Counted from the stretch's first letter, positions 7,637 to 13,290 are shown. The stretch: DNA of 64,000 nt from GCA_000165345.1 CM000435.1:448001-512000; one strand, 5' to 3'. A program made the numbers and translations. The notes: generated by a model not told the origin, from the sequence alone.

Positions 7637-7962
7637 CTAATTAGGAAATTAACATAGAAAAACTATTAATCTTAATCTATTTAGTTATTTTTGTCTATTT
7701 TTACACTTAAATGTTTCAATTCCCATCTTGCCTGTATTTAGTTAAGCAAATCATATAGAAAATTATTTATTATTGTTCAAGCAAATAATCGCAAAATAAA
7801 ATATCATATTCAATCATTCATATGATTATCTATGTTCCTAGCTTTAAATCTAATCAATTAATTGTTTCATGGGGGAATACTGGTAGCTCTGTGACATTAT
7901 TGTTGCTATTAATCATACTCTATTTTCCAGGTTTTAAGTTAGTAAACTTTTATTCTTTCTTT

Positions 7963-8738
7963 CTACCTTTCCTCTAAACTTACCACTAATTTATTAGATC
8001 CCAAGTGTTGGCAAGGCTTTTGTAACATCTGCTCCCTCTCATCTCTCCATTGCTGAACTCGAGTAGAGATATCTGAAAAGATTTGCTGAAGTCTAATTTT
8101 GTGGCCTGGAAGCCAAGTTTTATTTGAAAACTTTTCAATTTCGTCAATATCCTTTGGTGTTATTGTACAAAGGGCTTCAAGCTGCAAATTCAATTCAGTT
8201 TAAATTGTTAAAACGACCAAAAATAAATAATTTGAGGGAAAAATATTTCTTCCTCTAATTTTTTGAAAAACTTACCGTATCAAATCCTGCACCAATAAAG
8301 TCACCTGTAATTTTAGAGTTAATAAATTGTGATCTAAAGAAATCTATTACTGCAAATCTTTCCTGCTCAAATTCATATTCTAAAAAGGTTTTGAATTTAT
8401 GTTTAATTAAATTTAATATAAATAGTTAAAAAAAAAAAGATAATTGGTTGCATGCAAACACCGGTATCAATTTTTTTATTGCATGCAACTTACAAATTAC
8501 TTACCAGCATTCCAAATTCTTGAAAACCCCAAAAGATGCTCTCCATAATTCTTACACATGAAATCTACTATAAAATATGGGATATTTTCAGGATCTGATT
8601 CATCAAACTCCTTTAAAAATGTTTCCAAAAATCAATATTACAATATTAAATATTTAAATTTTGTCATTAACTTACCTGAAGCAACCTCTCGGTTATCTTT
8701 TCCATAGCAATCCTTCTAGCTGGGAATCCCTGTTCCAT
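7963..8738 (-). CDS. four-exon gene, 163 aa, with SAM-like C-terminal domain. join(complement 8676..8738, 8505..8610, 8276..8379, 7963..8181)
   Basis: Exon 1 encodes MEQGFPARRIAMEKITERLLQ, donor CAG|GTAAGT. All three introns are GTAAG...YAG (65, 125 and 94 nt). Frames connect without stops. Last exon equals ORF-track 7963..8193. C-terminal ITPKDIDEIEKF...LPGHKIRLQQIF resembles SAM-domain helices (LTEEDLKELGI..LGHRKKIL). Confidence 0.5.
8448..8488. promoter_or_regulatory. two copies of TTGCATGCAA, 21 nt apart, inside intron 2 of the SAM-like gene
   Basis: ggttgcatgcaaacaccggtatcaatttttttattgcatgcaactt. GCATGC at 8451-8456 and 8481-8486. Confidence 0.4.
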
Positions 8739-8909: not shown

Positions 8910-11900
8910 TTAGATGCGTTTTTTGTGTTTGTAATGATGAGAATGAGTATTGTATGTTTGTTTCTGTTGATTTACGTTAACATTTGAGCTTATATTGCAT
9001 TGATTTCCTACACACTGAGAATCATAAGTTACAATTGCTTCAGTTTTCACTTGCTTAATACATTTTTCTCCTTCTTCCGTGAAACCCTAAAAATTGTAAT
9101 GAATTTAAATTAATTATCACAAAAAAAATTGATTATATTTTCTTTAACTTTTTTTAACTTACAATTGGACACCTAAACTTTGCCTGAGCAAATCTTAAGC
9201 AATGATTCTTTTTTAAAATTAACCCTGGTGGACAAATTCTTTTGTGACCTGAGTACTCAATCATAATACATTTATTTCCGGCTTCTACAAATCCTTTTGG
9301 ACATCTTGAAATCGGGTCAAGATATATCTTATTTTCACATGTATCATTTGGACATTCCTTCTTTAACATAGAGAAACATTGTCCATTTACCATCATGGAA
9401 TCTCTTGGACAGGAATTTACCGTGGAATGGTATTTTTCCCAAACACAAATTGCTTGATCTAGTTTATATCCATTAGGACAACTAACCTCAGGTTCTACAA
9501 CTTTCTGAGTTTTACAATCCTTGTGTTGACAAATCTTATCTTTATAAAGTACACACTTATCTCCACTTAGAATATACCCTTCAGAGGGGCAAATCATATC
9601 TTTTGGAACAATCTCGGATTCCTTACAAGTGTTTCCATTAACTAATTCTGTTCCATTTGGACAAACTTTATTGGGAGTTATTGTTTTCAATTCTTCACAA
9701 TTATTGTTTTGACATTCCTTGACTGAGTAAGTGAGACAACTTCCATTAGAAATAATAGATCCTTTTGGACAAGAGATTTGTCCATTATTAAATAGTTTTT
9801 TCGTGCAAATTGGTCCTCCGTAGTTCAAATTTTGAGAGTTCTTTTGGAATCCAGAAGGACAACTTAAGACTGGGGGGAAAGTTTCTTGGGCTAAACATCC
9901 TCCTCTTGGACAAATCGACTCAACTTCTCTAATACAATAAGAATTCATAAGATTTGTTCCAAGGGGACATTTCAATTGAGGAAGATGATGAACTCTTTTT
10001 GAACAATTTCCTCCAGGGAAAAGTGAATACTGATTAGGACACTCAATAATAGGAGGAAAATGAACTTTTTTCTCACATTGATTATTCAAACATTCCTTAT
10101 AGACATACTTGGCACATAAATCATCCTGAATAGTGAAATCCTTGGGACAAGTAAGAATAGAAGGACTTCTTTTGATACTTTCACATTGATTTCTGGAAAT
10201 CAAAGTTCCTTGCTTACATGTAATTCTTGGTGGAATTGAAATAGTAACTGAGCAGTTTCCTCCTGAACATTCTTTAGATACCTGGTGAACGCATTGATCT
10301 CCTACTAATTTGAACGGTTTAATACATTTCAAAATTTGAGGTCCAATATTAATTTTTTCGCAAAGTTTGGTTTTTGAGTTTAGGGTTTCATTCTCATCAC
10401 ATTTAAACTCTGGAGGCTCTTTATGAATGATCTCACAATTACTATATGAACAAATCTTAACAATTCTTTCAATACAAATTTGTTGATTTGCACTAGAAAG
10501 TTCTCCTCTTTCACAGGTTTTTTCTGGAAAGACTTCATGCTTAAATATACAAACCCCATCTTCAAAAACAAATCCTGGAGGACAAATTCGTATTGAATCG
10601 ATAATATTTCTCAAAGTACAACCTTCTGGAGGACAAATTTTGGTAGTTACTTGAATACAATTTCCTTCTTCCATAATATATCCCTCTTCACAAATTAATT
10701 CTGGAGCTTTTCTAACAATAGAGGCACATTTATTATCTTCAGTCATACTAGAGCCTGGAGGACAAATGTTAACTTTTGGGATCATAAATTCCTCAAAACA
10801 CGTTTCCAGGGTTTTTGTATGGTCTGAGCAGATTCTTGTCATTGGAAGATGTTCTTTCTTCATACACTCTTTTCCAATATTAATTGATCCCTGTGGACAG
10901 GAAATCTTTGGAGGAAAAGCCTCAGTTCTAGTACAAGTTTTATGATTTCTTATGGCTTGAGAACAAATTCCTGAGTTTCTTTGGCCATAAAATCCAAGAT
11001 TAGAAGTATTTATGGTATTGACTCCACTTCCACAAGGAACAGGAACAATACTTACCTCAGAACAATCATATTCAACCAATTTTTGGCATTGTTTGATCTC
11101 ACTCAAATAATATCCCTTGGGACATTCATAGGAAACATCTATAAAACTCTCAACCAGACAGGAATCTCCAATTTTAGTTCCTTTGAGACATTTATATTCA
11201 AGAGGAAGAGGCTTTCTTCCTCCACACATTCCTGAATCAAGTCCAATAGTTCCTTCTGGACATTGAGGTTTTGAGTCTGAAATATTAATTTGAACACAAT
11301 CTCCATATTTTCCTTCCCTTCCAAATCCTTCTGGACAAAAAGAACTAGGTTTTGAGGTCTTAAAGCATTCATCTCCGTTATCCAAAAATCCAGGAGGACA
11401 AATTTTACTTCTTTGTATTGTTTTATGACAACTCATATCTAATTCATTGATTTCATATCCTACTGGACAATTTAACTCTCCCTCAGCTCTTTTCTCTTTT
11501 ATACATTTATTTTCTATTAAAGAATATCCTTCTGGACAATTTGATTTGGCTCTAGTTTCTATAATACAGAAATTCTCATTTGTCGAATCTTCTCTAGATC
11601 CTTCTGGGCATATTTTTGGAATAACTTCAGTATAAATACATTCTCCTAGTGAATTCAAGGTACTGGGTTCCTGACAAACCAAATCTGGAGATCTTGTAGT
11701 AATTTTTGTACACTTTTGTGTCTCAGGATTATATTTGTATCCTTCAATACATTGCTTTTCCGGGGATTCTATAACTGAGCAATAACCTCCAGAATCTAAA
11801 GAATTCAAAGGACATTTTCTTTTTGAAGTATTTTCACTAGTTAAAATACAAACAGAGTCAGATAATTCTGAACCTGAGGGGCATACTGTCTCAGCTGGAG

Positions 11901-13290
11901 ATAGAATAACCTCTTCACATTGTCCATTCACTAAACTCTGGAGATTTGGACAGGTTCTTCTTGGGGATACAAAACTAGCACATTCATTTTCTCCAATCTC
12001 TTCGTATCCTGGGGGACAAACTTGGATATTTCTTTCATACCCAACACAAGTCGAAGTACTTTGTTCAAATTTAGAATTTGGAGGACAAATAATATTTGGT
12101 TCAATGGATAATATTTCCTGGCAAAAATGGTTTTCTGGGTTATATTTAGTTCCAGCAGGACATTCCCATTCTCCTTTTACTTTTTGTAAACACAAATCCT
12201 TAGATCTGAAAGAATTAGCAGGACATTCCTTTTCTAAGGTAATTTCTGAAATACAAAGCTTATTAGATTCATCAAAGTATGAATATTTATTTGGACAAGA
12301 TATTTCTGGTTCAACTGACAAAGTGTTTAAACAAACTTTGCTACCATTATGAATAGTTTGCTCATATCCCTCTGGACAATGAAACAAAGGTTCTTGGTAA
12401 TTTACGCATTGATCTTCAACTTCAACAAATCCTATGGGACAAACTCTATTATTAATTCTGGACATTGAAATACAAGTCTGACCCTCTAAAAAGGACCCAG
12501 GAGGGCACTCTAATGTAGGATTTGAATAGTTAATATACCTACAAAGAGATTGATGTCTAACATTCTCAAGCTGAGTCCCTTTTGGACAAATATATTCTGG
12601 TTGAATCCATGTAGCACATTTATCTTCATCAATATCCTTAAATCCTTCGGGACAAATCTTTGGCTCAATCTGATCTTGAATACACATCTTTAAAGAAGCA
12701 TCAAAAACAAAAGGTTCCGGACAAACTACAGTTGGAAGAGCTGCCTTTCTTTCAATACATAAATTTGTGTTAGAGTCAAATTTGTATGGTTCTTGACAAA
12801 TTTTCATCGGCTCTCTAGCCATCGCACAGGTGTCTCTAAAATTAATGCTCCCTGGAGGACAAATTGCCTTAACTTCCTCTTTGTAGTAACATTTACCTGT
12901 ATTATAATCCATTTCTAAGCCATCAAGACAATATTTTTCCTTTTCAGCAAAGACTTCTTTAACGCATTGTTTGTCTTGCATTTGAAAACCTGTAGGACAT
13001 TCCTTAAGGAGAGGCTCAGCCAAATAGCACTCTGATCCTTTGGATACAAATCCTTCTGGACAAACTGGAATCTTTTGTGTCTCAATTTGATGAACACAAA
13101 TTCCATTTACTAGTGCAAAATTACCTGGGCAGGTCTCCACAGGTACTCTCACATACTGAGAGTTAGTTGGAATACTAAAAAAAAGAAGAACTGAGGTCAA
13201 ACAAATTCTTGCAATTCCTGATAAACTAATCAAAATCATTTTTAGATCTCCGGTTTTATGTACCGGTATCTTCATGCTTTGTTTCCTCAT
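8910..13290 (-). CDS. COWP: Cryptosporidium oocyst wall protein family (COWP-type Cys-rich repeats) with a 3' intron. join(complement 9163..13290, 8910..9086), about 1434 aa
   Basis: Signal-like N-terminus, then dozens of CPxG(F/Y)...C and CxxxxC modules. ORF-track stop at 9154 sits inside GTAAGT. Splicing ATT|GTAAGT...TTTTTAG|GG keeps frame. Added exon reads GFTEEGEKCIKQVKTEAIVTYDSQCVGNQCN..., completing the interrupted CPI|GF..G..C module. Confidence 0.7.

What the first reader, a model, noticed from the sequence alone, without database searches (positions are those of the whole stretch)
8910..9163. COWP-family gene probably has an unrecognised 3' intron and terminal exon
The long minus-strand COWP-like ORF stops at a TAA (9154-9156) that lies inside a consensus donor (ATT|GTAAGTTAA). 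Removing a 76-nt intron (9087-9162, acceptor AATTTTTAG) continues the frame for 58 codons: GFTEEGEKCIKQVKTEAIVTYDSQCVGNQCN...HKKRI*. That completes the CPI-GF..G..C module interrupted at the apparent stop. A module completed across a GT...AG pair is unlikely to be chance.
Basis: seen in the sequence. Interest (0 to 1): 0.65.

Follow-up and report, generated by a model that had tools for sequence, protein, structure and literature searches.

The report
COWP2 3' intron and terminal exon
The Cryptosporidium parvum oocyst wall protein 2 gene really does have a short intron just before its old stop codon and a 58-codon last exon, which newer genome annotations already include but the widely used older reference model still lacks.

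Summary
The minus-strand ORF 13290..9154 is C. parvum COWP2 (cgd7_1800), and its TAA lies inside a GTAAGT donor. Removing the 76-nt intron 9162..9087 continues the frame for 58 codons to the TAA at 8912..8910.

The spliced 1434-aa product is identical to GenBank QOY40498.1 (CPATCC_003355, C. parvum IOWA-ATCC) and WRK33352.1. The gene range annotated in those records is exactly window 13290..8910.

Seven Cryptosporidium species, out to C. andersoni, keep three things:
- GTAAGT at the same phase-0 position;
- a YAG|GGnTTy acceptor;
- an AT-rich intron of variable length (49-159 nt) that contains in-frame stops.

The tail exon evolves mainly at third codon positions. Its best match in the paralogue COWP1 is COWP1's own C-terminus.

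The truncated 1378/1361-aa model persists in RefSeq Iowa II, in several C. hominis and C. tyzzeri records, and in recent C. parvum records. The deposited C. bovis model has the same defect.

A 2025 study tagged COWP2 at the false stop, so its fusion protein lacks the last 58 residues.

Verdict: a real feature that is already known. Its remaining value is in curation and experimental design.

The parts
9163..13290 (-). COWP2 exon 1 (codons 1-1376, ATG at 13290..13288, ends ...FRCPI)
   Evidence: ORF list and translation. The 1378-aa read-through product is an exact match to EAK90221.1/XP_628357.1/AAR28686.1, 'oocyst wall protein 2'.
9087..9162 (-). Spliceosomal GT-AG intron, 76 nt, phase 0, 13% G+C
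   Evidence: It sits at the same position in 7 species, with lengths 76/49/59/102/50/159/63 nt, and every copy has in-frame stops. The annotated gene range is 4381 nt, i.e. CDS plus 76 nt.
9157..9162 (-). 5' splice site GTAAGT
   Evidence: Invariant in all 7 species. GTAAGT begins 84% of Cryptosporidium introns (PMC2483917).
9154..9156 (-). Pseudo-stop TAA of the old 1378-aa model, inside the intron at positions +7 to +9
   Evidence: The position of the first in-frame stop within the intron differs between species.
9087..9097 (-). 3' splice site with T-rich tract (ACAATTTTTAG)
   Evidence: A YAG followed by GGnTTy (Gly-Phe) is present in all 7 species.
8994..9086 (-). Exon 2, conserved part: GFTEEGEKCIKQVKTEAIVTYDSQCVGNQCN. 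It holds the rest of the last CPxGF..G..C module plus a C-x4-C cap with 3 Cys.
   Evidence: Three Cys, GF and the VKT-type motifs are conserved in 7 species. Differences at codon positions 1/2/3 are 106/78/380. Its best match in COWP1 is COWP1's C-terminus 1599-1623, E 3e-6.
8913..8993 (-). Exon 2, low-complexity basic tail rich in Asn, Gln, His and Lys (ISSNVNVNQQKQTYNTHSHHYKHKKRI)
   Evidence: Its length varies between species, but the His-rich character and the HKK-type ending are conserved. It contains the most His-dense 15-residue window of the whole protein. The structure model predicts it as disordered, at low confidence.
8910..8912 (-). True stop codon TAA
   Evidence: This is the end of the annotated gene range in CP044416.1 and CP141124.1. 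The next gene's ATG is at 8738.

Best explanation
The gene is C. parvum COWP2 (cgd7_1800 / CPATCC_003355). It has two exons.

A typical short, AT-rich Cryptosporidium spliceosomal intron (76 nt, GTAAGT...TTTTTAG, phase 0) lies between codon 1376 and the last exon. The TAA that ends the long ORF is simply bases +7 to +9 of that intron.

Splicing joins Cys-Pro-Ile (exon 1) to Gly-Phe-Thr-Glu-Glu-Gly-Glu-Lys-Cys (exon 2). The mature protein is 1434 aa. Exon 2 supplies:
1. both strands of the last Cys-bracketed hairpin module;
2. a terminal C-x4-C cap homologous to the C-terminus of COWP1;
3. a basic, His-rich tail.

Shown here: the sequence anatomy, the identity to the deposited spliced model, the conservation of the splice sites and of the coding potential, and the paralogue homology.

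Inferred: that essentially all mature mRNA is spliced. This rests on the published statement of RNA-seq support and on purifying selection. Also inferred: that the extra three cysteines complete the disulfide pattern.
For: -: the anatomy is exactly as described.
- the spliced 1434-aa product is an exact match to QOY40498.1 and WRK33352.1. Tail-bearing models also exist for C. hominis UKH1 and TU502_2012, C. meleagridis, C. ubiquitum and chipmunk genotype I.
- C. canis, C. felis and C. andersoni models also carry the tail.
- the annotated gene range in CP044416.1 and CP141124.1 is window 13290..8910, with identical DNA and 76 nt more than the CDS.
- all 7 loci have GTAAGT at the same phase-0 site after CP-x and a YAG|GGnTTy acceptor. 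Intron lengths are 49-159 nt, and four of the seven are not multiples of 3. All introns carry in-frame stops, and G+C dips inside the intron.
- in the first 30 codons of exon 2, pairwise differences at codon positions 1/2/3 are 106/78/380. Against C. canis there are 14 synonymous and 2 non-synonymous codon changes.
- the tail's best match in COWP1 is COWP1's extreme C-terminus (44% identity, E 3e-6).
- the tail restores the family's Cys spacing. The mature protein has an even Cys count of 124, against 121 for the truncated model.
- this is the only such rescue among 32 long open stretches in the window.
- the intron is typical for the genus (84% GTAAGT, median length 61 nt, 78% A+T).
Against: I saw no transcript or peptide data for this particular junction. 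The '100% supported' statement in PMC8744675 is general and does not name this gene.

Seven deposited models omit the exon: C. parvum Iowa II, C. hominis UdeA01 and 30976, C. tyzzeri, C. bovis, and the 1361-aa models KAL5367495.1/WKS78867.1 and KAL3126973.1. Two of these come from the same group that annotated IOWA-ATCC. All seven are explained as plain ORF calls.

A search of JGI metagenome contigs for the spliced junction sequence found nothing, as expected for that collection.

The structure model of the C-terminal 165 aa has low confidence (pLDDT 57.6).
Confidence: 0.94

Rival explanations
1. Partial intron retention. The intron is spliced in most transcripts, but a biologically meaningful fraction keeps it. 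That fraction would yield a second isoform ending ...CPIVS (1378 aa), without the cap and the basic tail.
For: A stop follows the donor immediately in C. parvum, C. felis and C. bovis, so retention would give a cleanly truncated protein. The 2025 COWP2-mNeon and COWP2-HA fusions were made at exactly this point and are expressed and secreted to the suture. A protein ending there is therefore tolerated.
Against: The first in-frame stop is not conserved in position. It lies 2 to 26 codons into the intron. Read-through peptides differ completely between species, which argues against selection for a retained-intron isoform. The donor is the optimal GTAAGT. No data here show retention.
Confidence: 0.08
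2. The old single-exon model is right. The protein ends at IVS, the GTAAGT...TAG pair is fortuitous, and the downstream open frame is non-coding 3' UTR.
For: This is the model in RefSeq XP_628357.1, AAR28686.1 and several other deposited records.
Against: A non-coding 3' UTR would not keep an open frame, three invariant Cys and a third-position substitution bias out to C. andersoni, which is 43% identical overall. It would not be homologous to COWP1's C-terminus either. Intron lengths vary while the exon-2 frame is always restored.
Confidence: 0.02
3. The 58-codon frame belongs to a separate downstream gene, or to the next gene's 5' end, rather than to COWP2.
For: The genome is very compact, and another gene on the same strand starts only 172 nt downstream, with its ATG at 8738.
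Against: The 58-codon frame has no ATG at its start. It begins exactly at the AG acceptor with the Gly-Phe needed to complete CP-x-GF. The neighbouring gene has its own conserved start, MEQGFPARR, matched by MEKGYPAKR in C. bovis.
Confidence: 0.01

Closest known systems
CPATCC_003355 (QOY40498.1), COWP2 gene model of C. parvum IOWA-ATCC, CP044416.1 (Baptista et al. 2022, PMC8744675); the same model is WRK33352.1 in CP141124.1
   Same: Identical DNA, identical gene range (window 13290..8910) and identical 1434-aa product. It is the same two-exon structure.
   Different: Nothing. The finding re-derives this model from sequence alone.
cgd7_1800 (EAK90221.1 / XP_628357.1 / AAR28686.1), the original Iowa II COWP2 model, 1378 aa
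   Same: Same locus and the same first 1376 codons.
   Different: It reads two codons into the intron (Val-Ser) and stops at the intronic TAA. It lacks the 58-aa terminal exon, including three Cys and the His-rich tail.
COWP1 (P0020, 1623 aa), the founding member of the family
   Same: Same Cys-rich architecture. Its C-terminus, CVKKVITTPIVSYETTCIGPTCNAA, is homologous to the COWP2 exon-2 sequence CIKQVKTEAIVTYDSQCVGNQCNIS. His-rich stretches are a family trait (PMC4514997).
   Different: In COWP1 the homologous motif is the very end of the protein. COWP2 continues for about 27 more residues of Asn/Gln/His/Lys-rich sequence. I did not examine the exon structure of COWP1.
Typical Cryptosporidium spliceosomal introns (Irimia and Roy 2008, PMC2483917)
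   Same: GTAAGT donor (84% of introns), short length (median 61 nt, mean 82) and very AT-rich (78%). The four introns I delimited in the neighbouring gene at 8738..7984 all use GTAAGT too.
   Different: None of note. At 87% A+T it is slightly more AT-rich than average.

Membership tests
COWP (Cryptosporidium oocyst wall protein) family, specifically COWP2 | Sequence identity to the protein named COWP2 | tested here: met
   Exact-sequence matches to 'oocyst wall protein 2' records, both 1378 aa and 1434 aa.
COWP (Cryptosporidium oocyst wall protein) family, specifically COWP2 | Cysteine at about every 10th-12th residue, in regularly spaced repeats (PMC12548878; PMC4514997) | tested here: met
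   There are 125 Cys. Most spacings are 10-13 residues in the N-terminal half, and the C-terminal half shows a 12-11-8-5 period. The tail adds spacings 11, 16 and 5, ending in the family's C-x4-C element.
COWP (Cryptosporidium oocyst wall protein) family, specifically COWP2 | N-terminal signal peptide and no transmembrane domain | tested here: inconclusive
   A hydrophobic stretch, ILISLSGIARICLTSVLLFFSIP, follows a 17-residue N-terminal extension. No signal-peptide predictor was available. The start codon, M1 or M18, differs between deposited models.
COWP (Cryptosporidium oocyst wall protein) family, specifically COWP2 | Histidine-rich stretches associated with the type II repeats (PMC4514997) | tested here: met
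   This is met only with the terminal exon included. The most His-dense 15-residue window of COWP2 is 1416-1434, in exon 2.
COWP (Cryptosporidium oocyst wall protein) family, specifically COWP2 | Localisation to the oocyst wall | not testable with these tools
   The literature reports COWP2 fusions at the suture and the residual body (PMC12548878). That fusion lacked the terminal exon.
U2-type GT-AG spliceosomal intron of the Cryptosporidium kind | GTAAGT 5' splice site and an AG 3' splice site preceded by a T-rich tract | tested here: met
.
U2-type GT-AG spliceosomal intron of the Cryptosporidium kind | Short and AT-rich relative to the flanking exons | tested here: met
   It is 76 nt and 13% G+C, against 32-33% in the flanking exons. 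All 7 species show the same dip.
U2-type GT-AG spliceosomal intron of the Cryptosporidium kind | Position and phase conserved in orthologues, while length and interior sequence drift | tested here: met
   The same phase-0 site is used in 7 species. Lengths are 49-159 nt, and intron interiors share only 39-55% identical positions in pairwise global alignment.
U2-type GT-AG spliceosomal intron of the Cryptosporidium kind | The downstream exon is under coding constraint in the spliced frame | tested here: met
   Differences at codon positions 1/2/3 are 106/78/380. Three Cys are invariant.
U2-type GT-AG spliceosomal intron of the Cryptosporidium kind | Spliced junction observed in RNA | not testable with these tools
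   There is only the published general statement that the IOWA-ATCC introns are 100% supported by RNA-seq (PMC8744675). The junction search in metagenome contigs was empty.
U2-type GT-AG spliceosomal intron of the Cryptosporidium kind | Recognisable branch-point motif | tested here: inconclusive
   By eye, YTRAY-like motifs (TTAAT, CTAAT, CTGAC, TTGAC) lie roughly 8-25 nt upstream of the AG in most of the seven introns. No clear branch-point consensus is known for C. parvum (PMC2483917).

The most novel reading that the evidence does not exclude
The published COWP2-mNeon and COWP2-HA reporter strains (PLoS Pathog 2025, PMC12548878) were built on the truncated model.

Their 5' homology arm ends in the intron's GTAAGT (window 9224..9157). 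Their 3' arm is 9087..9038. The cassette therefore replaces the rest of the intron, including the acceptor.

The fusion protein is COWP2(1-1376)-Val-Ser-tag. It lacks the last 58 residues: three Cys, the COWP1-like cap and the basic His-rich tail. That would leave Cys1374 without its usual partner region.

The novel reading is that the unusual extra accumulation of COWP2 in the residual body, and possibly part of its suture pattern, results from this truncation and is not native behaviour.
Probability: 0.2. Interest if true: 0.4.

Novelty: already known. Interest (0 to 1): 0.2.

Why it matters
The biology here is ordinary: a typical short intron in a known gene, already present in the IOWA-ATCC annotation and in several orthologue annotations.

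It matters in practice because the truncated model is still the RefSeq / Iowa II reference entry and is still being propagated. The 1361-aa models KAL5367495.1, WKS78867.1 and KAL3126973.1, the C. tyzzeri model, two C. hominis models and the C. bovis model all lack the exon.

It has already shaped an experiment. A 2025 CRISPR tagging of COWP2 fused the tag inside the splice donor and removed the acceptor. The reported suture and residual-body localisation therefore describes a protein missing its conserved C-terminal module.

Correcting the model affects tagging and knockout design, antibody and peptide design, proteomic search databases and orthologue comparisons for this suture marker.

Tried and rejected
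- A homologue search with only the last 201 aa of the spliced protein returned nothing, because of a limitation of the word index. The full-length query worked.
- Pfam found no family for the 1434-aa protein, so no domain-based argument was possible.
- A search of JGI metagenome contigs for the 32-nt spliced junction sequence found nothing. Cryptosporidium cDNA is not expected in that collection.
- An AlphaFold2 model of the last 165 aa, built from a 7-sequence alignment, had low confidence (pLDDT 57.6, pTM 0.28). It only suggests one beta-hairpin per CPxG...C module and a disordered tail. I did not run a fold search on it.
- I rejected chance, a separate gene (no start codon, and the frame begins at the acceptor) and the old single-exon model.
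- Literature searches for cgd7_1800 or COWP2 together with 'intron' found no paper that discusses this intron explicitly.

Full report
**What is in the sequence**

On the minus strand, an ORF runs from the ATG at 13290 to a TAA at 9156..9154 and encodes 1378 aa. Its last bases read CCA ATT GTA AGT TAA. The stop therefore sits immediately after a GTAAGT hexamer (9162..9157) that begins on a codon boundary.

The stretch 9162..9087 is 76 nt and 13% G+C, and it ends ACAATTTTTAG. Removing it continues the frame for 58 codons: GFTEEGEKCIKQVKTEAIVTYDSQCVGNQCNISSNVNVNQQKQTYNTHSHHYKHKKRI. The frame then ends at a TAA at 8912..8910.

**Is it more than chance?**

With the local base composition, 58 open codons have a probability of about 0.004. 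The window holds 32 open stretches of at least 150 codons. This is the only one where a GTAAGT within 30 nt of the stop, plus an AG 40-250 nt downstream, extends the frame by at least 50 codons. Only one acceptor does so.

**What the gene is, and whether the structure is already known**

An exact-sequence look-up shows two things:
- The 1378-aa read-through product is the original C. parvum Iowa II 'oocyst wall protein 2' (EAK90221.1, XP_628357.1, AAR28686.1; cgd7_1800).
- The spliced 1434-aa product is, residue for residue, QOY40498.1 (CPATCC_003355, C. parvum IOWA-ATCC) and WRK33352.1.

The gene range annotated for that protein in CP044416.1 and CP141124.1 is 4381 nt. That equals 4305 nt of CDS plus 76 nt. 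Its DNA is identical to window 13290..8910.

[quoted passage not shown] That statement is general. I could not inspect reads for this particular junction.

**Comparative test**

I fetched the orthologous loci of C. ubiquitum, C. canis, C. felis, C. bovis, C. andersoni and an unnamed Cryptosporidium from a Logan assembly. The flanking genes, a glycosyltransferase on one side and an ARID protein on the other, are the same in all of them.

All seven loci, including the window, share these features:
- GTAAGT directly after the Cys-Pro-x codon, in phase 0.
- An acceptor YAG followed by GGnTTy (Gly-Phe).
- An intron of 49-159 nt. The lengths modulo 3 are 1, 1, 2, 0, 2, 0, 0.
- In-frame stops inside every intron, at different positions.
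- A dip in G+C relative to both exons.

The intron interiors share only 39-55% identical positions in pairwise global alignment. The first 30 codons of exon 2 tell a different story. Pairwise differences at codon positions 1/2/3 are 106/78/380, and against C. canis there are 14 synonymous and 2 non-synonymous codon changes.

The tail keeps the pattern GF-E-x-x-E-x-C...V-K/R-T...C-x-G-x-x-C and a His/Lys-rich ending. This holds even in C. andersoni, whose protein is only 43% identical overall. That is the signature of a coding exon joined by a conserved intron.

**Paralogue test**

The best match of the 58-aa tail within COWP1 is COWP1's own extreme C-terminus. COWP2 CIKQVKTEAIVTYDSQCVGNQCNIS aligns with COWP1 1599-1623 CVKKVITTPIVSYETTCIGPTCNAA at 44% identity, E 3e-6. 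The terminal exon therefore encodes the family's C-terminal cap.

It also completes the CP-x-GF...G..C module. The regular expression CP.G[FY]x(3-9)C matches 14 times in the protein, and the last match spans the exon junction.

With the tail, the mature protein has 124 Cys. This count excludes the single Cys in the putative signal peptide. The truncated model has 121.

The most His-dense 15-residue window of COWP2 lies in the tail. This fits the family trait of His-rich stretches next to type II repeats (PMC4514997).

A low-confidence AlphaFold2 model (pLDDT 57.6) predicts one beta-hairpin per module. Both strands of the last hairpin are encoded by exon 2, and the remainder is predicted as disordered. 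I give this little weight.

**How it works**

This is an ordinary U2-type intron of the Cryptosporidium kind. In this genus 84% of introns begin with GTAAGT, the median length is 61 nt and the A+T content is 78% (PMC2483917). The neighbouring small gene at 8738..7984 has four GTAAGT introns of the same style.

The apparent stop of the long ORF is intron sequence. Splicing yields the 1434-aa protein.

Shown here: the anatomy, the identity to the deposited model, the conservation of sites and coding potential, and the paralogue homology. Inferred: the efficiency of splicing and the disulfide role of the three extra cysteines.

**Rivals**

- Partial intron retention giving a ...CPIVS isoform cannot be excluded without reads. 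However, the in-frame stop lies 2-26 codons into the intron depending on the species, and the read-through peptides are unrelated. Nothing suggests selection for such an isoform.
- The old single-exon model is contradicted by the comparative data.
- A separate gene is ruled out. The frame has no start codon and begins at the acceptor. The next gene has its own conserved start at 8738.

**State of the annotations**

Models with the tail:
- C. parvum IOWA-ATCC and CP141124.1
- C. hominis UKH1 and TU502_2012
- C. meleagridis
- C. ubiquitum
- chipmunk genotype I
- C. canis
- C. felis
- C. andersoni

Models without the tail, ending ...CPxVS:
- C. parvum Iowa II RefSeq
- C. hominis UdeA01 and 30976
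- C. tyzzeri
- the 1361-aa models KAL5367495.1/WKS78867.1 and KAL3126973.1
- C. bovis FG379_003387

For C. bovis I located the missed intron (L002 6150-6308, 159 nt) and its tail exon, GFIEKGEICTREVRTEAIVTYDSQCIGNSC....

**A practical consequence**

A 2025 study tagged COWP2 'at the C-terminus' using cgd7_1800 (PMC12548878). I mapped its primers, listed in its S1 Table, onto the window:
- The guide is 9194..9175, with its AGG PAM at codon 1373.
- The 5' homology arm is 9224..9157. It ends in GTAAGT and is fused directly to mNeon.
- The 3' arm is 9087..9038.

The cassette therefore replaces the remainder of the intron, including the acceptor. The fusion protein is COWP2(1-1376)-Val-Ser-tag, without the terminal 58 residues.

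The fusion is expressed and reaches the suture, so the truncated protein is tolerated. The reported additional accumulation in the residual body was, however, observed on a protein lacking its conserved cap and basic tail. Whether that matters is untested. I give it about 0.2.

**Verdict**

The feature is real but already known and biologically ordinary. Its remaining value lies in curation and experimental design.

Noticed in passing
window 7850..8738 (-): A small multi-exon gene lies 172 nt downstream of the true COWP2 stop. Its ATG is at 8738. The exons are 8738-8676, 8610-8505, 8379-8276 and 8181-7984, followed by a short last exon. All four donors are GTAAGT. The two annotated C. parvum assemblies give it different lengths: 175 aa in CP044416.1 and 178 aa in CP141124.1. 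An acceptor that starts the last exon at 7919 would give 178 aa.
   Followed up: partly
window 13239..13290 (-): Deposited COWP2 models disagree on the start codon. Some use M1 (MRKQSMK...; 1378/1434 aa) and others M18 (MILISL...; 1361/1417 aa). C. canis and C. felis conserve the N-terminal extension but have no Met at the M18 position. This favours M1.
   Followed up: partly
L002 6150-6494 (C. bovis VHIT02000002.1): The deposited C. bovis COWP2 model (FG379_003387, 1385 aa) stops inside the same GTAAGT donor. A 159-nt intron and a 61-codon terminal exon (GFIEKGEICTREVRTEAIVTYDSQCIGNSC...HKHKKYQ) are present but not annotated.
   Followed up: yes
window 9038..9224 (-): The published CRISPR tagging primers for COWP2 (PMC12548878, S1 Table) map so that the tag is fused after the intron's GTAAGT and the acceptor is deleted. 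The Methods call codon 1373 a serine, but AGG at that codon encodes arginine.
   Followed up: yes
L006 (Logan SRR31860986_3123): An unnamed Cryptosporidium genome assembled from a public sequencing run carries a COWP2 orthologue that is 74% identical, at a locus with higher G+C. Its intron is 102 nt, and the automatic gene call read through it, giving a 1395-aa product. I did not identify the species.
   Followed up: no
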